A stretch of DNA of 64,000 nucleotides, from positions 63,332 through 127,331 of the forward strand of contig JACKEY010000009.1 in NCBI GenBank assembly GCA_020632755.1. The letters are read 5' to 3'. The notes beneath the pieces are model-generated. The model was not told where the DNA came from and did not search any database. It was given only the letters and a program-made list of their open reading frames with translations. This document shows positions 4,311 to 38,122 of the stretch, one piece after another (position 1 is the stretch's first letter; every line of letters starts with the position of its first letter). The position numbers and the translations under genes were made by a program. Origin of the DNA: Alphaproteobacteria bacterium (GTDB lineage: Bacteria > Myxococcota_A > UBA796 > UBA2385).

Positions 4311-4331
4311 GCCTTCCCGGCTCACCAGCTC

Positions 4332-4362
4332 GCGCCCCGGCGTCCTCGCGACGCCGGGGCGC
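4332..4362 (+). terminator. GC-rich hairpin (13-bp perfect stem, 5-nt loop) after the NAC-repeat gene
   Basis: GCGCCCCGGCGTC-ctcgc-GACGCCGGGGCGC, 22 nt after the stop. There is no U-tract, as is common in high-GC genomes. Confidence 0.55.
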
Positions 4363-4437
4363 GCTGCGTCTCGGGGTCCCCTCCCCAGCAGCGGTGCGCT
4401 AGACCGACTCCTCGAACGCCACCCCGGACCCTCCACC

Positions 4438-13014: not shown

Positions 13015-14723
13015 TCCTCCTCCTCCTGGTGACCGGCTGCCTCCCTCCCCTGCCCGCGGGCCCCGGGGCCGGCGACGGCGACACCGACGTCTCCGACAGC
13101 GGCATCTCCGACGGTGGGGACACCGACGCGGACACCGACGCAGACTCGGACACCGACACCGACACCGACACCGGTGCCGACGACGCCGACGGCGACGGCT
13201 TCTCCGTGCCGGACGACTGCGACGACACCGACCCGGACGTGAACCCCGACGCCACCGAGATCTGCGACAACGGCATCGACGACAACTGCGACGGCCGGGC
13301 CACGCCCTGCCAGTTCGACGGCGACTACGGCGTGGACGACGCCGTCGGCACCGTCAGCGGCCAGACGACCAACGGCTACGTCGGCTCGTCGCTCGCGGTC
13401 GTCGTCATGGACACCGGCCCGGCCGTCGCCGTGGGCGCCGGGTGGGACAACCAGGGCGTCGTGTGGTTCTTCCAGGACTTCTCGCCGTCCGACGGCTCGG
13501 CGGACCTCACGACGGCCGACGCGACCCTGTCCCTGCGCGGCGAAGCCACCGGCGATCAGAGCGGCCGGGCCATGGCCGTCGCCGATGTCGACGGCGACGG
13601 CCACCCCGACCTGCTCGTCGGCGGCTACGCCAGCACGCTGCTCGGGTCCATCGCCACGACGCGGACCACCGGCCCCATCGTGCACATCGTCCACGGCCCG
13701 ATCCCCTCGTCGGCCGACGACCTGTACACCGCGGCCGATGTGCGCATCACCGGCGGCACCACCGCGACCGCGACCTACGGCCACATCGAGCTCGACGTGG
13801 CCGACGTCATGGGCCTCCGCCGGGCCGACGTGATCCTGAGCTTCCACACCTTCTCGGATGCCGCCGGCACCAACGCCCCGGTCAACCGGGGCGGGCTGGC
13901 CGTGCTGGCCGACCGACCGGCCGGCGAGCTCGATCTCGAGACCGACGCCGACCTGCGCATCGAAGGCGAGTCGCTGGGGGACGGCCTGGGTGCGGGCCTG
14001 GCCACCGTCGACGTCGATGGGGACGGTATCGACGACATCGTGGTGGGCGGACACGGGGCCGGCGGCGCCGACAGCTCGTCCCACGGCACCGTCTACGTGG
14101 TCGACGCGTCCGACTACGAAGGCGACGGCAACATCGTGTCCATCGACGATATCGCCGATCTGACCATCGAAGCCAGCGGCGCCACCGACCGGCTGGGCTT
14201 CACGGTGGCCGACGTCGGCGACGTGGACGGCGACGGCCGCGAGGACATCGCCATCGGCGCCGACGGCAGCATCTACGGCCAGCCCGACGCCGGCGAGGTG
14301 CTGGTCTTCCACACCGGCGGGCTGCCGGCGAGCGGCGCGCTGACCGCCGGCGACGCCGACTTCCGCCTGCAGGGCCAGGAGTCGGGCCGCTCGGGCGGGC
14401 GGCTCGGCTTCGAGATCGTGCCCGCCGGCGACGTCGATCACGACGGCCACGACGACTTCTACGCCAGCGGGATCTGGGAAGAGGTCGCCGGGACCGCGTC
14501 GGGCCGGGTCCACCTGGTCCCCGGCGGCCTGACCGGCCTGCTCGGCGTCGACGACGACGGGCTGCTCGCCACCTTCAGCGGCGCGGCCGGCACCGACTTC
14601 GGCGTGTCCATGATCAGCAACCGCGATCTGACCGGTGACGGCGTGGCCGATCTGGCCGTCGGCGCCTGGTCGTGGAGCACCGGGCGCGGCCGGGTCTACG
14701 CCTTCGCGAGCCCGACCTGGTGA
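13011..14723 (+). CDS. FG-GAP/integrin-alpha repeat lipoprotein with an Asp/Thr-rich linker and a Cys-rich metal-binding-like motif
   Basis: GTG overlaps the upstream stop (GTGA). VILLLLVTGC lipobox. DxDxDGxxD repeats (ADVDGDGHPDLLVGG, VDVDGDGIDDIVVGG, GDVDGDGREDIAIGA, GDVDHDGHDDFY, DLTGDGVADLAVGA). DCDDTDPDVNPDATEICDNGIDDNCDG motif. Confidence 0.8.
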   Translation: MILLLLVTGCLPPLPAGPGAGDGDTDVSDSGISDGGDTDADTDADSDTDTDTDTGADDADGDGFSVPDDCDDTDPDVNPDATEICDNGIDDNCDGRATPCQFDGDYGVDDAVGTVSGQTTNGYVGSSLAVVVMDTGPAVAVGAGWDNQGVVWFFQDFSPSDGSADLTTADATLSLRGEATGDQSGRAMAVADVDGDGHPDLLVGGYASTLLGSIATTRTTGPIVHIVHGPIPSSADDLYTAADVRITGGTTATATYGHIELDVADVMGLRRADVILSFHTFSDAAGTNAPVNRGGLAVLADRPAGELDLETDADLRIEGESLGDGLGAGLATVDVDGDGIDDIVVGGHGAGGADSSSHGTVYVVDASDYEGDGNIVSIDDIADLTIEASGATDRLGFTVADVGDVDGDGREDIAIGADGSIYGQPDAGEVLVFHTGGLPASGALTAGDADFRLQGQESGRSGGRLGFEIVPAGDVDHDGHDDFYASGIWEEVAGTASGRVHLVPGGLTGLLGVDDDGLLATFSGAAGTDFGVSMISNRDLTGDGVADLAVGAWSWSTGRGRVYAFASPTW

Positions 14724-14914
14724 GCGGGCTGCTGTGGCTGCTGGGCTCCGTCGTCCTGGCCAAGGGCGTCGCGCCCGACAGCCCGGCGCGCGTGGCCGCC
14801 CCGAGCGCTGGCACGCTCATGCGCTGGGCCGCGACGCAGGACCAGACGGTGAAGCTGCTGACGCCGGACGGGGTGAAGTAGCGGTGGGAGGGGCGACGGG
14901 GGCCGACCGGTGGG

Positions 14915-15409
14915 TCAGGGGCCGACCGGACGCCGCAGCGAGGCCGGATCGCGCCGATACTGCGCATCCCGCTCGTCGGAGAAGCCTGAGGTGGCGTGGG
15001 GCAGGTAGGCGCCGAGGGCCTGGAGCACGGCATCTTCGCCGCCGAACTGGACCGGGAGGCGCAGGTGCTTGCCGTCGGCCATCCGCAGCAGGATCCACGA
15101 GGTGGCCTTGTTGCGCACGACGAAGGCGTAGATCCACACGATCTCCTGGGGCCGCTCCCGCAGCAGCTGCAGGGGCCTGGCCTTGCGCGGATCGCCGAGT
15201 GCAGGGATGAAGAACAGCAGCCCCAGCAGGCCGGCACCGGCACACAGCACCCAGAGGTTCCGTTCCGGCGGGGACAGCGCGAAGAACGACGCCGCCGCCA
15301 GCGACAGGAACAGGACCGGCACGACGATGGCCGTCTTCCGGTAGCTTCGCTTGCGGTCGACGACCTGCTGCACGAGCAGGGTCTCGAGCTGTGGAGGGAG
15401 CTCACTCAC
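14915..15409 (-). CDS. hypothetical membrane protein (2 TM)
   Basis: 164-aa ORF with GC-rich third positions and two hydrophobic helices. No family recognised. Confidence 0.55.
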   Translation of the reverse strand: MSELPPQLETLLVQQVVDRKRSYRKTAIVVPVLFLSLAAASFFALSPPERNLWVLCAGAGLLGLLFFIPALGDPRKARPLQLLRERPQEIVWIYAFVVRNKATSWILLRMADGKHLRLPVQFGGEDAVLQALGAYLPHATSGFSDERDAQYRRDPASLRRPVGP

Positions 15410-15551
15410 GGGCCCGCCAGAGGTGGACGTTGGTCTCCGCCCCTATCGGGGCCGCGCTCTCGCCGTCCAGACCTGGCAAGTCGGCCCCAGGCCCGCCCGC
15501 CGCATGGGTCTACGCTCAGCGGATGAAGAGAAGGCCCCTGGCCGCTCTACC

Positions 15552-15612
15552 CGAGACGCAACGAAGCCCGCCGGAGCGGGCTTCGAGCCGAGAGAGCGCT
15601 CATCAGCTGCAA
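15552..15612 (+). repeat. direct repeat, left copy (att-like)
   Basis: CGAGACGCAACGAAGCCCGCCGGAGCGGGCTTCGAGCCGAGAGAGCGCTCATCAGCTGCAA, identical to 23252-23312. Contains a 9-bp-stem hairpin at 15563-15584. Confidence 0.95.
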
Positions 15613-15653
15613 ACACGACTGCCAGCCCGTATGCTCGGCCCGAGGGAGGCCCC

Positions 15654-17975
15654 ATGGACTTGGCTGGCACCTTTGGATGCGTCTTCACTGCTGTCTTCCT
15701 GGCAGCGGTGTTTGGGGTCGCGATCTTCTTGGGCGCTCGCAGCCGCAAGCAGGAAGAGACCTGGGACGAGTTGGCCGACTCCCCGGGTCCTCCTCCCAGC
15801 TTCCCGACGAAGCAGCAGGCTGCTCCAGCCCGGCCCAGGACGCGACCAGCATCCGTCACCCGCAGCCCGCAGACCGCCAACGCCCGGTGGACGGGCGCCG
15901 GAGAGTCCATCAGCGTGGCCGGCCGCACCTTCGACGCCCCCTGGGTGTGGTTCGGAACCGAGCTGAAAGCAGCAGGCGACCGGTACGGGACCGAGGCGGC
16001 CCTCGTGAATCCTCGCTTGCCTGTCGACTTCGCGGCGCCCGATTCCCGGGGCGAAGGCATGGGCTACTGGCCTCGATACGCCGACATCAGCCCCCAGTGT
16101 CGAGCGGCTTACCTCCAGTGGCTTGCCGACGGTCGCCAGGGCCCACACGCCAACATCGGCTACGTGTTCCTGTACTTCTACGGCATCGAGCGGCGGTTGT
16201 TGGTCGACCTCCTCCCCAAGGGCCACGAACAACCAGAGGTGGTGCGTCTCCTGGCGGAAGTGCGCCGGCTGCGTGAGCTCTACAAGGAGAACGCCTCGTT
16301 CGCGAGCTACTCGGGAGGGTTGCTCGACTTCGTCCAGGCGGGTGACCACGCGCGGCAGGACCCGACTCAGCTTCGCCCCCCTCTGCACAGCTCTCACTGG
16401 GACCTCCCTCTCGGCCTTCGCGTTGCGCTGGGCAAGCAGTTGTCCAGCGGGCAACCCCTGACCGCTGACTGGGCACTCGCCTGGGGCCTGCACCACTTCT
16501 CGGTCGGCAAGCGCACTCCCGTGGATCGGTGTCGGGACGAGGTCATCGCCTTGTTCAGGATCCGGTTCGAGGAGCGCTACCCCGGGGGGATGAAGGTCAA
16601 GGCTCCGAAGCGTCGGATCAAGGTGGAGTACCGCTCCGCCAGCCCGTCGTTGCTCCAGTCCGCGTCCTCGCTGGAGATCGACCTCCCGGATGTGGGGGCG
16701 CTCTCGGCGCCTCTCGAGAAGGTCCACGCCGTGCTTGACGCCTGTTGCGATGAGTTGGCTTCGTACAGCCGTTGGGTTGGAAGGAACCCCGACCAGGTGG
16801 GCAGCCTGCAGGCAGCGGCCCTGCTCCCTCCAATCTTGATCGCCACCTTGGACACACCATCGCTCTCCGGGCTTCGGTCGTGGTTGGCTGGTCTGGACTT
16901 GAATGGAGGAGATGTCGGAGCCCAGGAACTGCTGGGTGTCTGGCAGCCAGCGTCGGGAAAGTGGAGCAAGAAGGACTCGGTCCAGCTCTGCCAACTGCTC
17001 GATGGCCATGGTGTCGGGGTCGAGCCGGATGCCCGATTCGGGGGCGCCCGCCTGGACAATGCGAACCGCCTGGTTCTGTTCCGCCTCGAATCCGGTGCGC
17101 CGGACACGCCCTCGAACGCCTACCAGTCAGCCACACTGGCGCTCCACCTCGCTACCGCGGTTGTGCATGCCGACGGAGTGATCGACACCCAGGAGGAGGA
17201 GGGGCTCGAACGATTGCTGGAACGGAACCTCCACCTTTCCTCACCCGAACGAACCCGCCTCCGAGCACACCTGCGCTGGCTACTCCTCGACCACCCCGGG
17301 ATGGGGGGCCTGAGCACGCGACTCAAGGCCCTGGCTCCGAGCGACCGGACCGCACTCGCCAAGACAATGGCCGCCATGGCAACGGCAGGCGGTGGCGCGG
17401 GGCCTTCCGAACTCAAGCTCCTCGAGAAGATCTACAAGCACCTCGGCCAGGACCCGACTCAGCTGTATGAGCATGTCCATCAGGCCGCCGCGGCCCCGGC
17501 ATCGGACCAGGGGCCCATCACCGTCCGCGAAGGACGCCAGGGCCCTGTCGGCCACAGCATCCCAGGCCCACCTCAGACCAGCAGCCCTCCCAGAGCCAAG
17601 CCGGGATTCGAGCTCGACCTCGAACGCGTGGCCCACCGCGTCAAAGAAACCGAGCAGGTCGCCAGGATACTCGGGGACATCTTCGACAGCGACGACCTGC
17701 ACGGGGAACCCGAGCGCACCTCGCCGGACGAGCCCGCCGTGGAAGGCGTCGCCGGATTGGACGAGGCACATTCTGCGCTCGTTCGGATCCTGGTGACGCA
17801 GCCGACCTGGCAGCGCGAAGATGCAGAAGCAAGAGCCGATGCCCTGGGGTTGTTCCTCGGCGGCGCGATCGAGACCATCAACGATGCCACCTACGATCAC
17901 TGTGACGCCCCACTCGTCGAGGGCGACGAAGAACTCGAGATCGACCCTCAGGTCGCTGCGGAGTTGTGCCCATGA
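15654..17975 (+). CDS. sngA: TerB-N / TerB-C domain protein with an N-terminal TM helix (Shango SngA-like)
   Basis: ATG at 15654 after GAGGGAGG. TM segment GTFGCVFTAVFLAAVFGVAIFLGA. ...WPRYADISPQCRAAYLQWLADGR...GYVFLYFYGIERRLL matches the TerB N-terminal domain pattern. A central TerB-like helical region (ATAVVHADGVIDTQEEEGLERLL) and an acidic C-terminal domain follow. Confidence 0.75.
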   Translation: MDLAGTFGCVFTAVFLAAVFGVAIFLGARSRKQEETWDELADSPGPPPSFPTKQQAAPARPRTRPASVTRSPQTANARWTGAGESISVAGRTFDAPWVWFGTELKAAGDRYGTEAALVNPRLPVDFAAPDSRGEGMGYWPRYADISPQCRAAYLQWLADGRQGPHANIGYVFLYFYGIERRLLVDLLPKGHEQPEVVRLLAEVRRLRELYKENASFASYSGGLLDFVQAGDHARQDPTQLRPPLHSSHWDLPLGLRVALGKQLSSGQPLTADWALAWGLHHFSVGKRTPVDRCRDEVIALFRIRFEERYPGGMKVKAPKRRIKVEYRSASPSLLQSASSLEIDLPDVGALSAPLEKVHAVLDACCDELASYSRWVGRNPDQVGSLQAAALLPPILIATLDTPSLSGLRSWLAGLDLNGGDVGAQELLGVWQPASGKWSKKDSVQLCQLLDGHGVGVEPDARFGGARLDNANRLVLFRLESGAPDTPSNAYQSATLALHLATAVVHADGVIDTQEEEGLERLLERNLHLSSPERTRLRAHLRWLLLDHPGMGGLSTRLKALAPSDRTALAKTMAAMATAGGGAGPSELKLLEKIYKHLGQDPTQLYEHVHQAAAAPASDQGPITVREGRQGPVGHSIPGPPQTSSPPRAKPGFELDLERVAHRVKETEQVARILGDIFDSDDLHGEPERTSPDEPAVEGVAGLDEAHSALVRILVTQPTWQREDAEARADALGLFLGGAIETINDATYDHCDAPLVEGDEELEIDPQVAAELCP

Positions 17976-19285
17976 AGACCCGACAGCTTCGTCCCCGAGA
18001 GCGGGACGCCATCCTGCAGTCCTTGCGCGCCGGAGTCGTGCCGCGTGTCGGCCAACAGCACATCCAGGTGGGCCGCGCCCGAGAAGTCGAGGCTGTGGTG
18101 CGTGACATCGATCGCATCGCCGACGGGGGCTCGGCGATTCGCTTCGTCATCGGTGCGTACGGCTCCGGCAAGACCTTCTTCCTGCAGCTCGTGCGGTCGA
18201 TCGCCATGGAGAAGAAGCTGGTCGCCGCACACGCCGACCTGACTCCCGACCGACGCCTGCAGGCGTCGGGAGGCCAGGCGCGCAACCTCTTCGCGGAGCT
18301 GATGCGCAATGTGTCGACGCGCTCGAAGCCGGACGGTGGGGCCCTCCCGAGTGTCGTCGAGCGTTTCGTGTCGAGTGCCCTCCAGGAGGCGCGGGCGGAG
18401 GGTGTCCCGCCCACGGCGGTGCTCCATCGTCGGCTCGAAGCCTTGTCGGAGCTCGTCGGGGGATACGACTTCGCCCACGTCGTCGAGCGGTACTGGACAG
18501 GCCACGACACCGGCAACGACAGGATGAAGGCGGATGCAGTCCGCTGGCTTCGAGGCGAATTCACAACGAAGACGGACGCCCGCAAGGCGCTGGGCGTGCG
18601 GACCATCGTGGACGACAACAACGTCTACGACCAGTTGAAGCTGATGGCAGTCTTCGTTCGGCTGGCAGGGTACTCCGGCCTGCTCGTCGGACTCGATGAG
18701 ATGGTCAACCTCTTCAAGCTCTCCCACACCGCATCGCGCAATGCCAACTACGAACAGATCCTCCGCGTCTTGAATGACAGCCTTCAAGGGTCGGCCGCCG
18801 GGCTGGGGTTCGTGATGGGCGGCACCCCGGAGTTCCTGATGGACACGCGTCGGGGGCTTTACAGCTACGAGGCGCTCCAGACCCGACTCTCCGAGAATCG
18901 GTTCGCCACCGGCGAGCTCGTGGACATGAGTGGTCCCGTGATTCGGCTCGCGAGCCTGTCACCAGAGGATCTCTTCGTCTTGCTGACCAAGCTCCGAAGT
19001 GTCTCCGCGGACAGGGAGACCGGGACCGACCTTGTTCCGGACGAGGCCCTCAAGGCGTTCATGGTCCATTGCCACGAGCGCATCGGGGAGGCGTACTTCC
19101 GCACACCGCGCAACACCATCAAGGCCTTCGTGCAGATGTTGGCCGTCCTGGAGCAGAACCCTGGCACCTCGTGGCAAGACCTCCTCGGCAACGTGGACAT
19201 CTCCGCTGACGAAGGCGGCGCTGATGACCTCGCGCTCGACGACGACGCCCAAGGAGACGACGAGCTCTCCTCGTTTCGGCTGTAG
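17972..19285 (+). CDS. sngB: DUF2791 / BrxD-like P-loop ATPase (Shango SngB-like)
   Basis: ATG overlaps the sngA stop (ATGA at 17972-17975). ...ILQSLRAGVVPRVGQQHIQVGRAREV...FVIGAYGSGKTFFLQL (Walker A). LLVGLDEM (Walker B-like). Confidence 0.75.
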   Translation: MKTRQLRPRERDAILQSLRAGVVPRVGQQHIQVGRAREVEAVVRDIDRIADGGSAIRFVIGAYGSGKTFFLQLVRSIAMEKKLVAAHADLTPDRRLQASGGQARNLFAELMRNVSTRSKPDGGALPSVVERFVSSALQEARAEGVPPTAVLHRRLEALSELVGGYDFAHVVERYWTGHDTGNDRMKADAVRWLRGEFTTKTDARKALGVRTIVDDNNVYDQLKLMAVFVRLAGYSGLLVGLDEMVNLFKLSHTASRNANYEQILRVLNDSLQGSAAGLGFVMGGTPEFLMDTRRGLYSYEALQTRLSENRFATGELVDMSGPVIRLASLSPEDLFVLLTKLRSVSADRETGTDLVPDEALKAFMVHCHERIGEAYFRTPRNTIKAFVQMLAVLEQNPGTSWQDLLGNVDISADEGGADDLALDDDAQGDDELSSFRL

Positions 19286-19288
19286 GCC

Positions 19289-21529
19289 ATGAGCGCGGGA
19301 ACGTCCTCGGCATTCGAGCGCCTGCACCCGGACATCCAGCGCCTCCTCTGGCGGTGGGAGTGGCGAGAGCTCAACGATGCCCAGGAGCGCGCCGTGGCGC
19401 CGATCCTGGCTGGCGAACAGGACGTGGTCATCGCCGCCCCTACCGGCGGAGGCAAGACCGAGGCGGCCTACCTTCCTCTGCTGACGAGGATCCTCAATGC
19501 TTCCGAGCCCGGGTTGCGCGCCTTGTATGTCGCCCCGCTCAAAGCGCTTATCAACGATCAGCATCGGCGCCTGGAGGCGATGACCGAGGCGCTGGAAGTT
19601 CCTGTGCACAAATGGCACGGCGATGTGCCAAGTGCTCGAAAGCGGAAGGTGACCCAGACTCCCAGCGGCGTCTTGCTCATCACTCCAGAGTCACTGGAGG
19701 CCATCTTCGTCAACCATGGCACTCGAGTGGCTCAGCTCTTCGCGGGCCTCTCTCATGTCGTCATCGACGAACTCCACTCGTTCTTCGGCACGGAACGCGG
19801 CAGGCAACTGCAGAGCCTCCTGCACCGCGTGGAGCTGGCTGCAGGTCGACGCGTTCCGCGCGTCGGCCTCAGCGCCACCTTGGGTGATGCGACCCTTGCG
19901 GCCACATTCCTTCGACCGGGACAGGCATTGGGGGTAGAGATCATCGAGGGAGGTGCGGCGACCCACGAGCTTCGGCTTCAAGTGCGAGGCTATCGCCACC
20001 GGGCTCCGCGGCTGTCGAAGGCCGAGCTTCGCGAGCTCGATGAGCACGGTAGGGAAGCAGTCCTTGAGGATGCCGTGGACGGCGACGTGCTGGACATCGC
20101 AGACCACATGTACGGCGCCCTGCGAGGCAAGGACAACTTGGTGTTCGCGAACCGAAGGGCCGAGGTCGAGCTGTTCGCCGACCTGCTCAGGCGTACCTCG
20201 GAGCGGCAACGGGTCCCGAACGAGTTCTGGGCCCACCACGGGAGTCTGTCGCGCGAGCTCCGAGAAGACGCGGAGCGAGCGCTCAAGGAATTGGGGGTAG
20301 CCACGGCCGTGTGCACATCGACGCTCGAAATGGGGATCGACATCGGCACGGTGCACAGCGTGGCGCAGGTAGGCTGCCCGCCCTCGGTTGCAGCGATGCG
20401 TCAGAGACTCGGCCGGTCGGGCCGCCGCGGAGACCCGTCAATTCTCCGCATCTACGTGCAAGAGGCCGAGATCACGGAACGGAGCGCCCCGGCGGACCGC
20501 CTTCGACCGGAGCTTGTTCAGGCCGTGGCAATGGTCCGCCTCATGGTCCGAGACAGGTTCTGCGAGGCACCGAGGACGGGTGCCCTGCACCTGTCGACCA
20601 TGGTGCAGCAGCTGCTCTCGCTCATTGCACAGCACGGGGGTGTTCGGGCAGCCGCAGCGTTCCGCGCCCTATGCGTTGAGGGTCCCTTCGAGGCGGTCGA
20701 CCAGGCAGACTTCATGCTCTTCCTCCGAGGGCTTGGTGCGGCGGAGCTGATCGAGCAGGACTCCACTGGGCTGCTGCTTCACGGTCGCGTCGGAGAGCGA
20801 GTCGTCAACCACTACTCCTTCTACGCTGCCTTTCGGAGCCCCGAAGAGTACCGCCTGGTTTGCAGGGGCCGAACGCTGGGGTCGCTTCCCATCGACTCCC
20901 CCCTCTATGAAGGCGCCTATGTCGTGTTCGGGGGCCGACGCTGGAAGGTGGAGTCCGTCGATCAGGAGCGGCGGGTGATCCATCTGTTGCCTTCCAGTGC
21001 TGGCCGCCCACCCAAGTTCGGTGGTGGCTCGGGGGCACTGGTGGACGACGAGGTGCGCCGAGAAATGCTCCGCGTCTTGACGGATGGCTCGGTGAACCGC
21101 TTCGTCGACCCGACAGGGCTGGACCTGTTGGAGGAAGCCCGCGCCGAGTTCAGCCAGTTGGGACTCACCGGCAACGACATCCTGCGAGATGGCTCGGATG
21201 CGACGATCATCTGCTGGGTGGGCGACCGAGCGCTGGACACAATGGCGGTCCAACTCAAGGCCGAAGGCATCGACGCCGCCAGGCATGGCATCGCAGTCTG
21301 GGTTGCGAAGACCTCGCCGGAAGACCTCACCGCAGTTGCCCGTACCCTCGCCGCCAGGGGTCCCGCAGACGCAGTCGAGCTGGCGCGTGGCGTCGAGAAC
21401 AAGGCCGTCGAGAAGTACGACGAGTTCGTGCCGCACGAGTTGCTGTGCCGGGACTACGCCGGCCGGGCGCTGGATGTGGTGGGGGCCTGGGGGGTTTGGA
21501 AGCGGCTCGCGGCGTCCACCGCCAGCTGA
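19289..21529 (+). CDS. sngC: Lhr-like DEAD/DEAH-box superfamily 2 helicase (Shango SngC-like)
   Basis: Starts 4 nt after the sngB stop. AAPTGGGKTEAAYLPLL (motif I), VIDELHSF (DExH), SATLG (motif III), TSTLEMGIDIG and RLGRSGRRG (motifs V/VI). Long C-terminal domain. Confidence 0.85.
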   Translation: MSAGTSSAFERLHPDIQRLLWRWEWRELNDAQERAVAPILAGEQDVVIAAPTGGGKTEAAYLPLLTRILNASEPGLRALYVAPLKALINDQHRRLEAMTEALEVPVHKWHGDVPSARKRKVTQTPSGVLLITPESLEAIFVNHGTRVAQLFAGLSHVVIDELHSFFGTERGRQLQSLLHRVELAAGRRVPRVGLSATLGDATLAATFLRPGQALGVEIIEGGAATHELRLQVRGYRHRAPRLSKAELRELDEHGREAVLEDAVDGDVLDIADHMYGALRGKDNLVFANRRAEVELFADLLRRTSERQRVPNEFWAHHGSLSRELREDAERALKELGVATAVCTSTLEMGIDIGTVHSVAQVGCPPSVAAMRQRLGRSGRRGDPSILRIYVQEAEITERSAPADRLRPELVQAVAMVRLMVRDRFCEAPRTGALHLSTMVQQLLSLIAQHGGVRAAAAFRALCVEGPFEAVDQADFMLFLRGLGAAELIEQDSTGLLLHGRVGERVVNHYSFYAAFRSPEEYRLVCRGRTLGSLPIDSPLYEGAYVVFGGRRWKVESVDQERRVIHLLPSSAGRPPKFGGGSGALVDDEVRREMLRVLTDGSVNRFVDPTGLDLLEEARAEFSQLGLTGNDILRDGSDATIICWVGDRALDTMAVQLKAEGIDAARHGIAVWVAKTSPEDLTAVARTLAARGPADAVELARGVENKAVEKYDEFVPHELLCRDYAGRALDVVGAWGVWKRLAASTAS

Positions 21530-21868
21530 CAGCCGACGCGCGCCGTCCGGCGCCCACACCAGTAGGCCCACCTACGGTCAGCCGGCGAGCAAGCCCTCGA
21601 CGAACCCATCCGGCCCGCGAACGGTGACCCGCCTATCCGCCCCTCCCCGGAAGGAGTCGGCATGCCTTGAGGTCCCGGCACCGATCCCGCAGTCCGTGAA
21701 CGATGACGCAGCCAAGTCGCGGCGCAGGCGGCGTCCGGCCTGACGGTCCGTGCGTTCGCTCAACAACAGGGGATGGGATCGGCGCCGAGTCGCTGCATCG
21801 CTGGCGCGCGTGTCAAGCGACATCAGAAACTGACCCACCGACGACACCAAGAACTGCCCCCCCCCTCT

Positions 21869-22090
21869 TCACTGGTGGTGGGTGGTGTCGGCAGCCCGGA
21901 GAAGCCCGGACCACCGCTTCTCGCGAAGGCGGTAGCTGTCGCCGCGGATGGTGACGTCGTGGCTGTGGTGGAGCAGGCGATCGAGGATCGCGGTGGCGAC
22001 GACGCTGTCGCCGAAAACGGTGCCCGACTCGGCGACGTTGCGGTTGCTGGTGACCAGCGTGCTGCCGCGCTCGTAGCGGCGGCTGACCAG
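21869..22090 (-). pseudogene. IS21-family istB (helper ATPase) C-terminal fragment
   Basis: LVSRRYERGSTLVTSNRNVAESGTVFGDSVVATAILDRLLHHSHDVTIRGDSYRLREKR is the conserved IstB C-terminus. The N-terminal two thirds and istA are absent. Truncation sits at the hairpin CCCCCTCC-cttgcga-GGAGGGGG (22091-22113). Confidence 0.8.
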
Positions 22091-22623
22091 CCCCCTCCCT
22101 TGCGAGGAGGGGGTCGAGCTCAGTCTCAAAGCCGAGATCCGGCCGATGGCCCCAAGCGGTGACGATCAGCGGTACATGCTGGTGGTCGACCTGTACAAGA
22201 CCACTGCCGCCGACGGCAAGGAGTTCGTGACCCGCGGAATTCCAGACGTCGGCTACGAGCTCTACTACAAGTCCGAACTCTGTGGTGGGCTGGTCCTTGA
22301 GGTTCGATCGAAGGCCATTGCGAGCGAGTAGAGCAGCCGTTGGCCGCGAAATCGCCGGGGAGGCGGGCACCTGACCAACAGCCTCCCCCGCCTCCTGTGT
22401 AGCGAGATTCGGCGCGCCATCAGTGACCCACCAACCCCCTCCCCTCCAGCACCCAGCTCAGCCCCAACAGGTTGAGCACGGCCCCCAGGATCGCCACCGC
22501 CACCGCGTGCGCGACCGGTGACCGGGCAAGGGTGCGCACGAGCTCCCAGCTGTCCTTGCGCTGCTCGACGCGGGTATGGTCGACGGCGAGAGGGCTCGCT
22601 CGGAGAACACGGTCAGGTGAGCC

Positions 22624-22857
22624 CTACCTGAGCGGATAGTACTCCTGCTCGACTGTGCGCCCGTCGTAGAGCTCGAAGACGATGGTGTAGGTCTCGGGCC
22701 CGGCGCGCACGGTCGCAGACTTCAAGACTGTATCGGCCGATGTCTTGAAGGAGTACGTGCCGGATGTCGGGAGCCGATTCTCGGCACATTCGCGATGCGG
22801 TTCACACGAAACCGACACCAGGAGAACGAGACCAGCCATGCAGGTTCGATGGCTCAT
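22624..22857 (-). CDS. small hypothetical secreted/lipoprotein-like protein
   Basis: MSHRTCMAGLVLLVSVSCEPH... then a beta-rich 55 aa. Its start overlaps the stop of the upstream small ORF. Island cargo. Weak support. Confidence 0.3.
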   Translation of the reverse strand: MSHRTCMAGLVLLVSVSCEPHRECAENRLPTSGTYSFKTSADTVLKSATVRAGPETYTIVFELYDGRTVEQEYYPLR

Positions 22858-23168
22858 TCTGCATCGGCGGGGAACAGGGTGATGTCTCGGTCGTCGATAC
22901 CCCGGACCTCGATCCACATGATCCCATCCCCCCGGTAGGAGATGACCACCTCCTCCAGGTCGAGCTCCCGCGCGACGCTCCCCGAATCCGCCTCGGTCCA
23001 GGTCGAGTCCACCGCTCGCCACGGGTCCGAGAACCAATCACAGAACGCCTTGGCGCTCCCTCCCAGCGCCACCGACAGCGCGATCAGGGCGCCCGCCGCG
23101 TGAACACAGCGACGTCTGACACCGGCGCTGCCTCCGGCAGGCAACTGGTTCGATTCGGTCTCCACCAA
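22854..23168 (-). CDS. small hypothetical secreted protein
   Basis: 104-aa ORF with the hydrophobic segment AAGALIALSVALGGSA. Adjacent to and co-oriented with 22624..22857. Weak support. Confidence 0.3.
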   Translation of the reverse strand: MVETESNQLPAGGSAGVRRRCVHAAGALIALSVALGGSAKAFCDWFSDPWRAVDSTWTEADSGSVARELDLEEVVISYRGDGIMWIEVRGIDDRDITLFPADAE

Positions 23169-23251
23169 GAACAGCGTAGCACTGGCGCTGAGGCCGCAAA
23201 CAGTGGAGGTTCATGCGTCCGACCGCCAACCACTCCCCTCCCCAACCCACT

Positions 23252-23312
23252 CGAGACGCAACGAAGCCCGCCGGAGCGGGCTTCGAGCCGAGAGAGCGCT
23301 CATCAGCTGCAA
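23252..23312 (+). repeat. direct repeat, right copy (att-like)
   Basis: Identical to 15552-15612. Confidence 0.95.
23263..23284 (-). terminator. hairpin GAAGCCCGC-nnnn-GCGGGCTTC, 65 nt downstream of the stop of the 23350..24480 gene
   Basis: Perfect 9-bp stem and 4-nt loop, positioned as an intrinsic terminator for the minus-strand lipoprotein gene. No U-tract. Confidence 0.45.
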
Positions 23313-23349
23313 GGTCGCGCTGAATCGCAGCGGCTCCGCCGCCTGCGAT

Positions 23350-24480
23350 TCAGAGGTTGTACATCATGTACTGCAGCACCTGCAGCACGTCGCTGTTGGC
23401 GTTCTTGGCGACGCGGAAGGTGCTGTAGACCACCTTGCCTTCGCCGGCGCCGAAGCTGACCAGCATGGGGGCGGTGGGGATGTTCCGGGTGACGGTGCCC
23501 TGGCGGTAGGTCACGTCGCCGCGCAGGTGCACGCTGACGGAGTCGCTGGCGGTCTCGATGGGCGGCCAGACCGGCAGGTCGTACTCGACCTCGATGTAGT
23601 CCTTGTCGAGCCAGGCGCCCATGGACGCGTCGCTGACGGCGGCGCTGACCAGGTCGTACTCGCCGAGCTGGGCGGCGTCGGGGACGTTGTCGTCGCCGAC
23701 GAAGTCCAGGCGGTCGGGGTAGGCCTGCTCGACCACGTCGTAGGCCCAGTCGCTGGCGTAGATGCTGCCGCCGCCCTCGACGTAGGCGCGGATGTTGTCC
23801 ATCACCTCTTCGGACACGGGGATGGTGCCGGTGTCCACTTCTTCGCCACCGCCCAGGCCGGGCTCGTCCTCGTCGTCCTGGACCTCGTAGATCAGGCCCT
23901 CTTCGACATGGCCGCCGTTGAAGAAGATGATGTCGTAGGACTGCATGGCCGTCAGGTCGGTCAGGAAGCCCTCGACCTCGCTGCGGTCCAGCCCGTCGAT
24001 CTCGGTGTAGTTGGCGAAGCCCATGTTCGACAGCACCAGCTCGAAGCTGTCGTAGCTGCCGGAGATGATGGCCACGTCGATGGTCAGCGGGTCGAAGCAG
24101 TCCGGCTCGGCCAGGACCTTGTCTTCGCCGTCGCCCAGCCACAGGCCGTACTTCTGCTGGTCGCCCAGCGTGTCGCCGCCGAACTGGATCAGCACGTCGT
24201 ACTCGGCTTCACCGGGCAGCTCTTCCAGCAGGAAGTAGCCGTCGCGGTCGGTGTAGGCGATGCGGGTCTCGATGACGCGGTCGCCGCCCCGTTCCTTGAC
24301 GTGGGTGTAGACCGTCGCGTCCTGGAGCCAGGTCTTGCCCGACGCATCGCAGACGCGGCCGGAGATCTGTCCCGGGCTGATGACAGGGTTGCTGTCGTCG
24401 ATGCGGGTGAAGGTCTTGTCCTGGGTGCAGCCGGCGGCCAGGGTGGCGAGGCCGGCGGCCAGAAGGAAGCGAGTGCGCAC
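23350..24480 (-). CDS. lipoprotein, CarboxypepD_reg-like N-domain plus GATase1-like/ThuA-like domain (paralog A)
   Basis: MRTRFLLAAGLATLAAGC lipobox. Similar along its full length to 25296..26363 (shared blocks CFDPL.IDVAI, MGFANY, FFNGGH.EEG, YASDW.YDVVEQ, RLDFVGDD.VPDAAQ.GEYDL, DLPVWPP, LQY..Y.L). Fold assignment is inference. Confidence 0.75.
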   Translation of the reverse strand: MRTRFLLAAGLATLAAGCTQDKTFTRIDDSNPVISPGQISGRVCDASGKTWLQDATVYTHVKERGGDRVIETRIAYTDRDGYFLLEELPGEAEYDVLIQFGGDTLGDQQKYGLWLGDGEDKVLAEPDCFDPLTIDVAIISGSYDSFELVLSNMGFANYTEIDGLDRSEVEGFLTDLTAMQSYDIIFFNGGHVEEGLIYEVQDDEDEPGLGGGEEVDTGTIPVSEEVMDNIRAYVEGGGSIYASDWAYDVVEQAYPDRLDFVGDDNVPDAAQLGEYDLVSAAVSDASMGAWLDKDYIEVEYDLPVWPPIETASDSVSVHLRGDVTYRQGTVTRNIPTAPMLVSFGAGEGKVVYSTFRVAKNANSDVLQVLQYMMYNL

Positions 24481-24549
24481 GTTGGCCTCCGAGAGGGGTG
24501 CGGAACGGATGCATTGTAGTCGCGCCAGACCGGGATGGTCAACTGCGTG

Positions 24550-25299
24550 TCACAGGGCGGAGACCACGTACTGGACGGCCTGGAGGAAGTCGGCGGGGGC
24601 ATCGCCCGAGAGCCGTGGAACGCTGTGCACGATCCGGCCCTCGCCCAGCCGGGCCGAGGTCAGCAGCGGGGCGGCGGGCAGCTCGCCCGCGGGCAGCACG
24701 ACGCGGGCCACCAGGTGCACGCCGACCGCATCGCCGGCGCGCTCGATCGGCGCGCTGCCAGCACCCAGCGACAGGGCCTCGATGTCGTTGGCGCCGAGCA
24801 GCGCCGACAGGCTGGCGTCCGCGATCGTGGCGTCCACCGTCTGCGCCGGCGCGACCTCGGCGGCCCCGGCGACGGACTCCTCGCCGACGAAGTCCAGCAC
24901 GTCGGGCGCGACGCCGTGCACGACCTCGTAGCTGCGGCCGGTCGACAGCAGGATGCCGCCTCCCTCCACCCATGCCGCCAGCGCCGCCAGCCCGGGCCCG
25001 CTGGCCTCGCCCCACAAGACGCCCTCCTCCGACAGCCCCTCGTCCAGGACCACCAGCTCGAAGGCGTCGAGGGAACCCTCCAGCGCCCCCGCGGTCGCGA
25101 CCGGGTCGCCGCCGTCGACGATGGCGAAGGCGCTGAGCCCGAGCGCGGCCATGCCGTCGAAGGTGTCGACCCCGCCGTCGCCGTGGACGAGCAGGGTGTC
25201 GAGGTCGACGACCTGCTGCCCCCCGCCCGTGTCGTGGGGCTCCGCGCCCGAGTCCAGCGGCTCCGAGCCCGCGGCGCAGGCCAGGAACAAGGCGATCAC
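24550..25299 (-). CDS. shorter divergent paralog lacking the N-terminal domain (possible lipoprotein; start uncertain)
   Basis: GTG overlaps the stop of the upstream paralog (GTGA). VIALFLACAAG... Retains blocks WVEGGG, DVLDFVGEE and LQAVQYVVSAL. The signal peptide would be unusually short. Confidence 0.5.
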   Translation of the reverse strand: MIALFLACAAGSEPLDSGAEPHDTGGGQQVVDLDTLLVHGDGGVDTFDGMAALGLSAFAIVDGGDPVATAGALEGSLDAFELVVLDEGLSEEGVLWGEASGPGLAALAAWVEGGGILLSTGRSYEVVHGVAPDVLDFVGEESVAGAAEVAPAQTVDATIADASLSALLGANDIEALSLGAGSAPIERAGDAVGVHLVARVVLPAGELPAAPLLTSARLGEGRIVHSVPRLSGDAPADFLQAVQYVVSAL

Positions 25300-26363
25300 A
25301 GCGTGTAGAGCAGGTACTGCAGGCTGCTCTGCAGGTCGGCGCTGGCGTTGCGGGCGACCCGGAACGAGCTGTAGATGACGCGGCCCTCGCCCTGGCTGAA
25401 GCTGACCAGCAGCGGGGCGGACGGCAACGTCTGCACGACCGTGCCCTGGCGCCAGCGCACGTCGCCGGAGATGTGCACGGACACGCCGTCGTCGACGGCG
25501 ATTACGGGCGGCCAGACGGGCAGGTCGAACTCGACCTCGACGTGCAGGCGGTCGAGGTACTCGGACAGCGCCACGTCGGAGACGGCGGCGTTGATCAGAT
25601 CGTACTCGCCGGTCTGGGCGGCGTCGGGCACGTCGTCGTCGCCGACGAAGTCGAGCCGTGCGGGGAACACCTGCTCGACGACGTCGTAGGACCAGTCGCT
25701 GGCGTAGAGCATGCCGCCCGCCTCGACGTAGGCGGCGATGTTGTCGGCGACGGCCAGGGCCACGTCTTCGCCGGTGCCGTCGGCCGCCGGGTAGATGATG
25801 CCCTCCTCCAGGTGGCCGCCGTTGAAGAAGACCACGTCGTAGCGGGACAGATCGCTGGTCAGGAAGCTGGTCAGCTCCGCCTCGTCCAGCCCGTCGATGA
25901 CGTCGTAGTTGGCGAAGCCCATCGCCCGCAGCACGGCCTCGAAGTCGTCGTAGGCGCCCTGGACGATGGCCACGTCGATCTGCAGCGGGTCGAAACAGTC
26001 GGGCTCGTCCAGGATCAGGAGCCCGCCGCCTTCGAGCCACAGCCCGCCGTGTTCCTGGTCGTCGAGGTGCAGGCCGCCGACCTGGACGTACACGTCGTAG
26101 GCCTGCTCGCCGGGGAGCTCGTCGAGGACGTAGCGGCCATCGGGATCGGTGTAGACCTGCCGGGTCTCGACCACCCGCCCGTCGTCGTTGAGGATGTTCG
26201 TGTAGACCAGCGCGTCCTGCTGCCAGGTGCGGCCGTCGGCCGAGCAGACGCGGCCTTCGATCTGGCCGTCCGCCGCTGCGGCCGGGGCGGGCGGGTCCTT
26301 GTCGAGGCCGTACTCTGGGGTGCAGGCGAGGAGCAGGACGGGCAGGAGAGCGAGCGAGCGCAT
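25296..26363 (-). CDS. lipoprotein, CarboxypepD_reg-like N-domain plus GATase1-like domain (paralog B)
   Basis: Trimmed to MRSLALLPVLLLAC (lipobox). Colinear with paralog A. Confidence 0.75.
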   Translation of the reverse strand: MRSLALLPVLLLACTPEYGLDKDPPAPAAAADGQIEGRVCSADGRTWQQDALVYTNILNDDGRVVETRQVYTDPDGRYVLDELPGEQAYDVYVQVGGLHLDDQEHGGLWLEGGGLLILDEPDCFDPLQIDVAIVQGAYDDFEAVLRAMGFANYDVIDGLDEAELTSFLTSDLSRYDVVFFNGGHLEEGIIYPAADGTGEDVALAVADNIAAYVEAGGMLYASDWSYDVVEQVFPARLDFVGDDDVPDAAQTGEYDLINAAVSDVALSEYLDRLHVEVEFDLPVWPPVIAVDDGVSVHISGDVRWRQGTVVQTLPSAPLLVSFSQGEGRVIYSSFRVARNASADLQSSLQYLLYTL

Positions 26364-26436
26364 GGGGGGCCTCCGGGCAAGACGAAACCGTGCCGCTGCA
26401 CGGTAGGCGGCCCCGGGGCCGATTGTCAACGCGATG

Positions 26437-33217: not shown

Positions 33218-33278
33218 GGGCTCCTCCAGGGGCGCGGTTGTGGGCGTCTGCCGACCCCGTTAGCCGGTGCACCTTCGC

Positions 33279-33509
33279 ATGGAGGCCATCTTGGCTGCAG
33301 ACGATCTGATTCCTGTCGAGGGGGTCATCACCGAGGTCTTTCCCGGTGGCGCCTTCCTCGTCGAGACCGAAGCGGGCACGCAGGTGCACGCCCATCTCTC
33401 CGGCAAGCTCCGCCGGTTCCGCATCCGTGTCGTGCTCGGCGACAAGGTCACCGTCGAGGTGAGCCCGTATGATCTGAGCAAGGGGCGGATCACCTACCGC
33501 CACAAGTAG
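33279..33509 (+). CDS. infA: translation initiation factor IF-1
   Basis: ...LIPVEGVITEVFPGGAFLVETEAGTQVHAHLSGKLRRFRIRVVLGDKVTVEVSPYDLSKGRITYRHK. Start could also be 33267 or the TTG at 33291. Confidence 0.9.
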   Translation: MEAILAADDLIPVEGVITEVFPGGAFLVETEAGTQVHAHLSGKLRRFRIRVVLGDKVTVEVSPYDLSKGRITYRHK

Positions 33510-33597: not shown

Positions 33598-33619
33598 ACC
33601 CGTACAGCAACCCGTACAC
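33598..33619 (+). repeat. left border motif pair ACCCGTACAG / ACCCGTACAC (12-bp period), plus an inverted CCGTACAGC copy at 33563-33571
   Basis: Read directly from the sequence. Confidence 0.8.
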
Positions 33620-33722
33620 GGCGGTGTCGCCGGGATGGGGCGTCGACCCTTCAATGTGGGCGCCGGCCTTGACGGCTGCCACTTGGTGAGCATGAGGGGC
33701 AAGTCCGCTTCGAGGAGGACTT

Positions 33723-34667: not shown

Positions 34668-34692
34668 ACACGGTTGAACTTGGGAGAGGACT

Positions 34693-34941: not shown

Positions 34942-34989
34942 ATCCACGGCGATCGGTCGGGGGGCCTTCCGCCGAAATTGCCAGGTTGG

Positions 34990-35322: not shown

Positions 35323-35460
35323 CCTGCTCTGCTCCGGGGGGAGCAGCAGAATTGGCCTCGTCACGGCTGGACACAAGGCCGCATGGCGGCCTATCTATGA
35401 GCCGTTATGCGGCTATCCCTTGCGCCGTGATGGGGCGAGCAGGGCCGCGACGGAGGGACC

Positions 35461-35817: not shown

Positions 35818-35843
35818 GGCGCGCATGGCGGGATAGGCCGCGC

Positions 35844-36188: not shown

Positions 36189-36239
36189 ATCCCAGCACGG
36201 TGCGCGGATTGGAGATGAACTCGCGGGGATAGGGGGCTC

Positions 36240-38110: not shown

Positions 38111-38122
38111 GCGGGAGTCAAG

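What the first reader, a model, noticed from the sequence alone, without database searches (positions are those of the whole stretch)
15552..23312. Perfect 61-bp direct repeat, 7700 bp apart, brackets a recombinase-less island
The 61-mer CGAGACGCAACGAAGCCCGCCGGAGCGGGCTTCGAGCCGAGAGAGCGCTCATCAGCTGCAA occurs at 15552-15612 and again, base for base, at 23252-23312. The right copy holds a 9-bp-stem hairpin, 65 nt past the stop of the minus-strand lipoprotein gene 23350..24480, where its terminator would be. The simplest reading is that an element inserted into that terminator region and duplicated a 61-bp att core, so the left copy is the duplicate. The enclosed DNA (Shango-type trio, istB fragment, small ORFs with more A/T-ending codons) is unrelated to the envelope genes on both sides. 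The island carries no integrase. It was either mobilised in trans or is a fixed remnant. The first cargo gene starts only 42 nt from the left repeat, so its promoter must lie in or upstream of the junction.
Basis: partly seen in the sequence, partly recalled or inferred. Interest (0 to 1): 0.72.

Follow-up and report, generated by a model that had tools for sequence, protein, structure and literature searches.

The report
Integrase-less Shango island with 61-bp repeats
A 7.6-kb piece of foreign DNA carrying the known Shango anti-phage system sits just past the terminator of a lipoprotein gene, flanked by two identical 61-bp copies of that terminator region; it looks like an ordinary integrated mobile element that has lost its own integrase.

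Summary
The 61-mer occurs exactly twice (15552-15612 and 23252-23312) and is the only dispersed exact repeat of 20 nt or more in the window. The enclosed DNA is a complete Shango operon (sngA, sngB, sngC), a truncated IS21 (only the last ~59 codons of istB) and about 1.2 kb of unrecognisable DNA. No recombinase or recombinase remnant is inside. Island genes have GC3 of 0.78-0.82, against 0.88-0.96 in the flanks.

The right copy is native DNA. In an 85%-identical relative the sequence runs unbroken from the lipoprotein gene into the repeat, and more distant relatives carry a terminator hairpin at the same offset. Homology to an independent Shango cassette starts 11 nt inside the left repeat. 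The next-closest Shango cassettes sit on integrase-bearing elements, one with its integrase directly after sngC, where the window has the IS21 scar.

Best reading: a decayed integrative element, "CIME-like" (att sites kept, integrase lost), inserted at a terminator with a 61-bp att core.

Not shown: an empty site, excision, or the recombinase. No close relative and no further copy of the 61-mer was found in any collection. The source genome outside the window could not be searched. This is a new member of a known kind, of modest interest.

The parts
14915..15409 (-). Left-flank native gene: 164-aa membrane protein with no known domain
   Evidence: GC3 is 0.89. Orthologs at 66-79% aa occur in Sandaracinaceae-type MAGs. 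DNA homology to them covers only 14913-15420.
15552..15612 (.). Left copy of the 61-bp direct repeat (attL-like junction)
   Evidence: Exact match. No equivalent sequence lies upstream of the 164-aa orthologs in L008, L011 or L014.
15562..15585 (.). 10-bp-stem, 4-nt-loop palindromic hairpin inside the left copy
   Evidence: (I16).
15621..15653 (+). Conserved sngA leader: -10-like TATGCT (15630-15635) and RBS GGGAGG (15644-15649). The -35 position would fall on the last bases of the repeat.
   Evidence: Shared with the independent Shango cassette L016. It does not pass the sigma-70 consensus scan, so its promoter role is inferred.
15654..17975 (+). sngA (TerB_N-TerB-TerB_C protein, 773 aa)
   Evidence: PADLOC SngA 7.3e-88. 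Pfam TerB_N 5.6e-52 and TerB_C 5.7e-23.
17966..19285 (+). sngB (BrxC/BrxD-type ATPase, 439 aa)
   Evidence: PADLOC SngB 2.3e-180. Pfam BrxC_BrxD 2e-152.
19289..21529 (+). sngC (DEAD/DEAH helicase, 746 aa)
   Evidence: PADLOC SngC 5.4e-262. Pfam DEAD + Helicase_C.
21804..22092 (-). IS21-family scar: the last ~59 codons of istB (21869-22092) plus the 3' IS tail. The rest of the IS is deleted.
   Evidence: Pfam IstB_IS21 9.9e-21, covering profile positions 178-236 of 238 only. blastn to plasmid istB genes covers 21804-22091 only.
22093..23251 (.). Unrecognisable DNA with short, probably non-functional ORFs (right arm of the island)
   Evidence: No Pfam, PADLOC or PHROGs hits. No plasmid tblastn hits. 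ORF 22854-23168 is an orphan among 1.84 billion representative proteins. No integrase or resolvase remnant.
23252..23312 (.). Right copy of the 61-bp repeat (attR-like junction); native 3' region of the lipoprotein gene
   Evidence: Exact match. The 85%-aa relative L007 continues across its outer edge. Logan contigs L001 and L002 break 30 nt into it.
23262..23285 (-). Terminator-type hairpin of the lipoprotein gene, 64 nt past its stop
   Evidence: Fold. L003 and L004 have GC-rich hairpins at the same offset, and the L004 hairpin is followed by a T-run.
23321..23352 (-). Stop-codon-proximal hairpin of the lipoprotein gene (outside the repeat)
   Evidence: Fold. It is kept through compensatory changes in L007.
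23350..24480 (-). Right-flank native gene LipoB (376-aa lipoprotein with a weak CarboxypepD_reg match)
   Evidence: GC3 is 0.93. Pfam. The run LipoB-MoaC-ADI-BrkB-Usp-transglycosylase-MazG-InfA is collinear with L003.

Best explanation
The 7.64-kb segment between the repeats is the remnant of an integrative mobile element that carried a Shango anti-phage operon.

Proposed history: a circular form of the element recombined with the chromosome inside a 61-bp stretch that both molecules shared. That stretch is the terminator region downstream of the lipoprotein gene 23350..24480. A single crossover of this kind leaves one copy of the shared stretch at each junction (attL at 15552-15612, attR at 23252-23312). 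It also leaves a terminator hairpin both after the lipoprotein gene and ahead of the next native gene.

The element's own recombinase, expected between sngC and the right junction, was then lost. An IS21 inserted there, and a later deletion removed most of the IS together with adjoining DNA. What remains is att sites plus cargo without integration genes. This matches the published definition of a CIME (cis-mobilizable element). It is now either fixed or movable only with a recombinase supplied by another element.

Shown: the repeat; the foreign cargo; the native status of the right copy; the absence of a recombinase; the IS21 truncation.

Inferred: that the crossover was made by a site-specific integrase; that an integrase was once present; the order of events.
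For: 1. The repeat is exact, unique and sharp-edged.
2. The repeat edges coincide with the change from native to foreign DNA. GC3 is 0.78-0.82 for sngA, sngB and sngC, against 0.88-0.96 in the flanks. Homology to the independent Shango cassette L016 (72% nt) runs from 15623 to 21503, starting 11 nt inside the left repeat, and L016 has no 61-mer.
3. The right copy is native. L007 (85% aa, 88% nt) continues from the gene through the stop-proximal hairpin and across the outer repeat edge. L003 and L004 have a terminator hairpin at the same offset. No equivalent lies upstream of the 164-aa orthologs.
4. Collinearity with L003 runs from InfA to the lipoprotein gene and ends right after that gene.
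5. This Shango clade travels on integrase-bearing elements. In L017 the order is HTH_17 x2, VapE-like, sngABC, tyrosine integrase directly after sngC, then tRNA-Met. L019 has a TrwC relaxase, HTH_17 genes and an integrase. The topology 'target gene - att - integrase - sngCBA' in L017 matches 'LipoB - 61-mer - junk/IS21 scar - sngCBA - 61-mer' in the window.
6. The IS21 fragment (profile positions 178-236 of 238) proves an interior deletion.
7. Two independent sequencing runs give contigs that stop exactly 30 nt into the repeat. A k=31 assembly graph does this when the 61-mer has two contexts in the sample.
8. The CIME definition is taken from PMC5704250.
Against: - No empty site was found, so insertion at this exact point is inferred and not observed.
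- The 164-aa gene has different neighbours in every relative examined, so its ancestral adjacency to the lipoprotein gene is unproven.
- No integrase remnant is detectable in the 1.7-kb right arm.
- Only 41 nt separate the left repeat from the sngA start codon. That leaves little room for the arm-type binding sites typical of tyrosine-integrase attP sites.
- A 61-bp identity is also long enough for RecA-dependent recombination, so the sequence cannot distinguish a site-specific crossover from a homologous one.
- Genome-wide copy number of the 61-mer in the source organism is unknown.
Confidence: 0.6

Rival explanations
1. The 61-mer is one member of a dispersed terminator-containing repeat family (REP- or MITE-like) in this genome. 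The island, or the whole left-hand region, was joined here by ordinary homologous recombination between two family members and not by insertion at an att site.
For: The 61-mer contains a perfect palindrome typical of REP or terminator elements. 61 bp is enough for RecA-dependent recombination (established knowledge). The 164-aa gene has no conserved neighbours in relatives, so a rearrangement is possible. Only 64 kb of the source genome could be examined.
Against: There are only two copies in 64 kb, with no diverged copies by blastn-short. A 42-nt core had no hit in 185,579 species-representative genomes, a 37-nt core none in IMG/VR, and the 29-nt tail none in JGI metagenomes. The two copies bracket exactly the foreign-composition DNA. 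The outer part of the right copy is conserved in position next to the lipoprotein gene in L007.
Confidence: 0.12
2. The integrated structure is an assembly product. The real molecules are a chromosome with one 61-mer (lipoprotein gene directly followed by the 164-aa gene) plus a separate 7.64-kb circle, or a strain variant, carrying one 61-mer. An assembler threaded the loop A-R-X-R-B through the shared node.
For: The source is an uncultured-organism contig: exact matches are found only in Logan metagenome contigs, and the source contig is 243.5 kb. The graph topology of 'integrated' and of 'empty site plus circle' is identical for a repeat longer than k. The Logan contigs break inside the repeat.
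Against: A 7.6-kb circle with no replication gene could only be a transient excised form, which still implies the same att-based element. A 61-bp repeat is spanned by ordinary 100-150-nt reads, so most assemblers resolve it. Neither point could be tested here.
Confidence: 0.1
3. The island never had its own recombinase. It is moved in trans by a recombinase encoded elsewhere, for example the tyrosine integrase (39105-40223) or the serine recombinase (37739-38827) of the neighbouring CBASS island, or a host enzyme that recognises the palindromic hairpin as a core site.
For: Recombinases exist 14-17 kb away. The hairpin can be read as two 8-bp inverted arms around an 8-bp centre, which is the general layout of tyrosine-recombinase core sites (inference from established knowledge). 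The left arm of the element is only 41 nt long.
Against: Nothing resembling the 61-mer lies in or near the CBASS island. The 15-nt match at 38735-38749 is inside the resolvase coding sequence and is a chance match. The IS21 scar shows that DNA was lost from the island. Related Shango cassettes carry their own integrases.
Confidence: 0.12

Closest known systems
[quoted passage not shown] 2017, PMC5704250)
   Same: Direct repeats at both ends, one overlapping the 3' region of a host gene. Cargo is retained. There is no integrase, excisionase or transfer gene. There is evidence of internal decay (the IS21 scar).
   Different: CIMEs were defined in Firmicutes, where the cognate ICE and its integrase are known and cis-mobilisation has been observed. 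Here no cognate element is known, and it is not shown that the repeats are recombinase substrates. The target is the terminator of a protein-coding gene and not a tRNA or gene 3' end of known integrase specificity.
tRNA-anchored integrative elements carrying Shango (for example L017: ...sngABC - tyrosine integrase - tRNA-Met)
   Same: Same Shango clade (SngC 58% identical). Same order relative to the target: target gene, att, [integrase position], sngC-sngB-sngA.
   Different: The window has no integrase and no tRNA. The target is a lipoprotein gene's terminator. The element is much smaller (7.6 kb) and has no excisionase or primase genes.
Core defence hotspots and defence islands carrying Shango (Johnson et al. 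2023, PMC10250203; Millman et al. 2022, bioRxiv 10.1101/2022.05.11.491447)
   Same: A three-gene Shango operon (TerB protein, ATPase, DEAD/DEAH helicase) acquired horizontally next to conserved core genes. A second defence system (type II CBASS) lies within 20 kb.
   Different: Those hotspots are defined by comparing many genomes of one species. Here only one genome is available, so a hotspot cannot be established. The perfect 61-bp flanking repeat is not a described feature of those hotspots.
Transposon target-site duplications, and MITE/REP elements
   Same: Direct repeats flank inserted DNA. The repeat contains a palindrome.
   Different: Transposon duplications are typically 2-15 bp and lie outside terminal inverted repeats. 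Here the repeat is 61 bp and there are no inverted repeats of 9 nt or more at the island ends. No additional copies were found as expected for MITE/REP families.

Membership tests
Shango anti-phage system | SngA: TerB-domain protein | tested here: met
   PADLOC SngA 7.3e-88. Pfam TerB_N, TerB and TerB_C.
Shango anti-phage system | SngB: ATPase of the BrxC/BrxD type | tested here: met
   PADLOC SngB 2.3e-180. Pfam BrxC_BrxD 2e-152.
Shango anti-phage system | SngC: DEAD/DEAH helicase, with all three genes in one operon | tested here: met
   PADLOC SngC 5.4e-262. The genes are co-directional, with a 10-nt overlap (sngA/sngB) and a 3-nt gap (sngB/sngC).
Shango anti-phage system | Protects against phage infection | not testable with these tools
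   Needs plaque assays. Activity was shown only for the P. aeruginosa and E. coli homologs (PMC10250203).
CIME / decayed integrative element | Flanked by direct repeats corresponding to attL and attR | tested here: inconclusive
   A perfect 61-bp direct repeat sits exactly at the native/foreign boundaries. It cannot be shown here that the repeats are recombinase substrates.
CIME / decayed integrative element | Lacks integrase, excisionase and transfer genes | tested here: met
   None found by Pfam, PADLOC, PHROGs or tblastn with three integrases and a resolvase.
CIME / decayed integrative element | Derived from a complete integrative element by decay | tested here: inconclusive
   The IS21 scar proves an interior deletion. 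Related Shango cassettes sit beside integrases. No integrase remnant is present.
CIME / decayed integrative element | An unoccupied attB site exists in related genomes, or excision is detectable | tested here: inconclusive
   No sufficiently close relative exists in genome, metagenome or viral collections. Excision needs read data.
tRNA/tmRNA-targeting genomic island | A tRNA, tmRNA or other RNA gene at one junction, with its 3' end duplicated | tested here: not met
   ARAGORN finds no tRNA or tmRNA in the window. Rfam gives nothing at gathering score and only sub-threshold hairpin hits at both copies.
Dispersed REP/MITE-like repeat | Many copies in unrelated intergenic regions of the same genome | tested here: inconclusive
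   Only 2 copies in 64 kb. No hits in public genome, viral or metagenome scans.
DDE transposon with target-site duplication | Terminal inverted repeats just inside short (2-15 bp) duplications, plus a transposase | tested here: not met
   No inverted repeat of 9 nt or more between the island's inner ends. The duplication is 61 bp. The only transposition-related sequence is an internal istB fragment.

The most novel reading that the evidence does not exclude
In this Sandaracinaceae-type lineage, defence cassettes may insert without a dedicated integrase. A short regulatory module of the host (a terminator here; a promoter plus the first five codons in the related contig L011, where a ~150-nt 94%-identical repeat brackets a segment containing a Lamassu-like system and no recombinase is annotated on the 15.7-kb contig) would be copied to both sides of the insert. 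The agent would be a host-encoded or hairpin-recognising recombinase, or RecA-dependent Campbell insertion of circular cassettes. That would be a recombinase-free way of building defence islands.
Probability: 0.08. Interest if true: 0.7.

Novelty: new member of a known kind. Interest (0 to 1): 0.3.

Why it matters
If the reading is right, this is a clean example, from a poorly studied group (uncultured Myxococcota related to Sandaracinaceae), of a known anti-phage system delivered by an integrative element that targets the terminator of a protein-coding gene instead of a tRNA gene. The element has since lost its integrase.

The perfect 61-bp repeats give exact primers and junction sequences for testing whether such remnants still excise or can be mobilised by a neighbouring element. 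The same 64-kb stretch carries a second, integrase-bearing island with a type II CBASS, so the material for such a test is next door.

It does not change what is known about Shango or about integrative elements.

Tried and rejected
1. Empty site. I looked up contigs carrying exact or homologous copies of both flanking genes. The one close relative of the lipoprotein gene (L007, 85% aa) ends 19 nt into the repeat. Relatives of the 164-aa gene have different neighbours. The search for related loci on GTDB representatives found nothing. A degenerate probe on the gene's conserved 3' end retrieved only relatives at 66-73% nt identity.

2. Dispersal. Scans with 42-nt, 37-nt and 29-nt pieces of the 61-mer in genome, viral and metagenome collections all returned nothing. 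This says little about the source genome, which appears to be absent from or masked in those collections.

3. Integrase remnants. tblastn with the L017, L019 and window integrases and the window resolvase against 21400-23400 gave only noise, E > 0.1. Pfam at E <= 1, PHROGs, plasmid tblastn and a 1.84-billion-protein search on the junk ORFs found nothing.

4. RNA-gene target. ARAGORN and Rfam, at both strict and permissive thresholds, were negative.

5. Transposon reading. No terminal inverted repeats.

6. Link to the neighbouring recombinases. The 15-nt hairpin match at 38735-38749 lies inside the resolvase coding sequence, and no 61-mer-like sequence lies at the borders of the CBASS island. 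Rejected as chance.

7. The 78-nt '91%' extension reported by the repeat finder is the 61-mer plus 17 C-rich bases that match at 10/17. It is not a real extension.

8. L011 as a parallel case. Its 156-nt repeat also encloses native-composition genes and does not coincide with the foreign Lamassu segment. I kept it only as a side observation.
Full report
**Observation**

The 61-mer CGAGACGCAACGAAGCCCGCCGGAGCGGGCTTCGAGCCGAGAGAGCGCTCATCAGCTGCAA is present without a mismatch at 15552-15612 and 23252-23312. There is no further copy at up to three mismatches, and no match in any of 100 shuffles. A sensitive blastn-short search finds no diverged copies in the window. A k=20 scan shows it is the only non-tandem exact repeat of 20 nt or more in 64 kb.

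Its edges are sharp. The '78 nt at 91%' family from the repeat finder is the 61-mer plus 17 C-rich bases that agree at 10/17. The repeat contains a 10-bp-stem, 4-nt-loop palindrome (I16). The stem is 10 bp, not 9 bp. The lipoprotein gene also has another hairpin that overlaps its stop codon (23321-23352), outside the repeat.

**What lies between the repeats**

In this 70-75% GC genome I called genes by position-specific GC. Three co-directional genes fill 15654-21529. They are a complete Shango system:
- SngA: PADLOC 7.3e-88; Pfam TerB_N, TerB, TerB_C.
- SngB: PADLOC 2.3e-180; Pfam BrxC_BrxD.
- SngC: PADLOC 5.4e-262; Pfam DEAD + Helicase_C.

Shango is a published three-gene anti-phage system (PMC10250203).

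Their GC3 is 0.78-0.82, against 0.88-0.96 for the genes on either side.

Downstream of sngC there are 1,722 nt with one recognisable feature. That feature is the last ~59 codons of an IS21-family istB on the minus strand (Pfam IstB_IS21 9.9e-21, profile positions 178-236 of 238) plus its 3' tail. blastn to plasmid istB genes covers 21804-22091 only. The rest of the IS is missing, so DNA has been deleted here.

The remaining ~1.2 kb (22093-23251) has only short ORFs. They have no hit in Pfam, PADLOC, PHROGs or plasmids. The best-looking ORF is an orphan among 1.84 billion representative proteins. tblastn with three tyrosine integrases and a serine recombinase finds no remnant. There is no tRNA or tmRNA, no Rfam family at gathering score, and only sub-threshold hairpin matches around both copies.

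**Which copy is native**

The exact lipoprotein (LipoB, 23350..24480) occurs on two Logan contigs from different sequencing runs. Both contigs stop exactly 30 nt into the right repeat. A k=31 assembly graph breaks there when the 61-mer has two contexts in the sample.

The closest relative, L007 (85% aa, 88% nt), keeps the stop-proximal hairpin through compensatory substitutions. It continues across the outer edge of the repeat (…GCGCGRCC|TTGCAGC…) for 19 nt, where the contig ends.

The more distant relatives L003 and L004 have a GC-rich hairpin at the same offset from the stop as the hairpin in the 61-mer. In L004 it is followed by a T-run. So the right copy is the native 3' region of the lipoprotein gene and holds the positional equivalent of its terminator.

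By contrast, orthologs of the left-flank 164-aa gene (66-79% aa, 76-82% nt) match the window only over 14913-15420. None has anything like the 61-mer upstream.

**Where the foreign DNA starts**

The nearest independent Shango cassette is L016 (SngC 79% aa, 72% nt overall). It aligns to the window from 15623 to 21503 and nowhere else. Cargo homology therefore begins 11 nt inside the inner edge of the left repeat.

The two cassettes share CAGCCCRTATGCT…GGGAG…ATGGACTTG upstream of sngA. This suggests a conserved -10-like element at 15630-15635, with the -35 position on the last bases of the repeat. It does not satisfy the sigma-70 consensus scan, so the promoter is inferred. L016 has no 61-mer and no flanking repeat.

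**Synteny**

On the right, the window from 23.3 to 33.5 kb is collinear with L003: lipoprotein, MoaC, arginine deiminase, BrkB, Usp, transglycosylase, MazG, InfA. The window differs in having a tandem LipoA-X-LipoB arrangement. Collinearity ends immediately after the lipoprotein gene.

What follows that gene differs in every relative: an alpha/beta hydrolase in L003, and an NA37 protein in L004-L006.

The 164-aa gene also has different neighbours in each relative. So it is not shown that it adjoined the lipoprotein gene before the insertion.

**How this Shango clade travels**

The two next-closest cassettes on long contigs are both inside integrase-bearing elements.
- L017: two HTH_17 (excisionase-type) genes, a VapE-like primase, sngABC, then a tyrosine integrase immediately after sngC, followed by tRNA-Met.
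- L019: a TrwC relaxase, HTH_17 genes and a tyrosine integrase.

Reading from the target gene inward, L017 is 'tRNA - integrase - sngC-B-A'. The window is 'lipoprotein terminator (61-mer) - junk/IS21 scar - sngC-B-A - 61-mer'. The space where an integrase would be expected is exactly the decayed segment.

**Mechanism**

The most economical account is a single crossover between a circular element and the chromosome within a 61-bp stretch shared by both. That leaves one copy at each junction and preserves a terminator hairpin both after the lipoprotein gene and ahead of the 164-aa gene. The recombination module was then lost through IS21 insertion and deletion.

Shown: the repeat, the foreign cargo, the native right copy, the lack of a recombinase, and the IS21 truncation.

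Inferred: that the crossover was site-specific, that an integrase was once present, and the order of events.

The perfect identity of the repeats and the non-adapted codon composition of the cargo both fit a recent event.

**Rivals**

(a) Dispersed repeat plus homologous recombination. This is not supported by the window (two copies only) or by scans of GTDB representatives, IMG/VR and JGI metagenomes with 42-, 37- and 29-nt pieces. The source genome outside the window could not be searched.

(b) Assembly loop. 'Integrated island' and 'empty site plus 7.6-kb circle' give the same graph when the repeat exceeds k. Only reads can separate them. Even so, the circle would be the excised form of the same element.

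(c) Trans-acting recombinase. The window has a second foreign island at about 33.6-45.9 kb, between infA and a sulfatase gene that are near neighbours in L003. It carries a serine recombinase, a tyrosine integrase and a complete type II CBASS. Nothing links it to the 61-mer. The 15-nt hairpin match at 38735-38749 is inside the resolvase coding sequence.

**What could not be done**

No empty site was found. Close relatives are absent from GTDB representatives and JGI metagenomes. Logan contigs of the nearest organisms are too short.

Excision, terminator function, promoter use and anti-phage activity all need experiments or read data.

**Verdict**

The object is an ordinary kind of thing: a small, decayed integrative island carrying a known defence system. 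It occurs in an unusual host lineage and at a non-tRNA target. I rate it as a new member of a known kind, with interest 0.3.

The most novel reading not excluded is a lineage-specific, integrase-free way of inserting defence cassettes that duplicates a host regulatory module. It is hinted at by the repeat-bracketed, Lamassu-containing segment in L011. I give it about 8%.

Noticed in passing
window 33600-45900: A second foreign island lies between infA (33267-33509) and a sulfatase gene (45934-48603), which are near neighbours in relative L003. It carries a Ser/Thr kinase (33723-34667), an HTH regulator (34990-35376, -), a 500-aa protein with no known domain, a serine recombinase (37739-38827), a tyrosine integrase (39105-40223) and a complete type II CBASS: SAVED-HNH effector 40271-41404, cyclase 41558-42616, E1-E2 Cap2 42623-44371, JAB Cap3 within 44178-44903. 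No flanking direct repeat was found with seeds of 11 nt or more.
   Followed up: partly
L011 6076-6231 and 14009-14164 (JGI Ga0556162_0016996): In a relative carrying the 164-aa ortholog, a ~150-nt direct repeat (about 94% identical; promoter, 5'-UTR and the first five codons MSTRR) brackets 7.9 kb. The segment holds an ankyrin gene, the 164-aa gene, a YgjP-like gene and a Lamassu-like LmuA/LmuC/LmuB cluster whose GC3 (0.76-0.77) is as low as Shango's here. No recombinase is annotated on the 15.7-kb contig. A tRNA-Arg lies at 14940-15016, and a 17/18-nt copy of its 3' end lies at 13969-13986. The repeat does not coincide with the foreign-composition part.
   Followed up: partly
window 23350-26429: There is a tandem arrangement of two paralogous lipoprotein genes: LipoB at 23350-24480 and LipoA at 25296-26429, 58% aa identical. 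A 249-aa gene of unknown function (24550-25299) separates them. More distant relatives have a single lipoprotein gene next to moaC. The 3' end of the gene (…QYMMYNL*) is conserved at the DNA level across relatives.
   Followed up: partly
L014 1980-2342: In the closest relative of the 164-aa gene (79% aa), the upstream neighbour is an HTH_17 (excisionase-type) gene followed by a GNAT acetyltransferase. The side of this gene that faces the Shango island in the window may therefore be occupied by a different mobile element there.
   Followed up: no
window 4229-4300: An exact tandem repeat with a 9-nt period (at least 7 units) lies at the start of the multihaem cytochrome-like gene 4207-5694. Shorter exact tandem repeats lie at 11290-11336 and 61976-62014.
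   Followed up: no
window 12578-14638: A large + strand ORF (686 aa) has internally repeated GDVDGDG-type segments (direct repeat families D3, D11, D13 and D14) and no Pfam hit at E <= 0.01. It failed my GC3 filter over its full length, so its true extent is uncertain.
   Followed up: no
window 22093-22125: Immediately at the IS21 truncation point there is a short G/C palindrome (CCCCCTCC-CTTGCGA-GGAGGGGG). Whether it relates to the deletion event is unknown.
   Followed up: no
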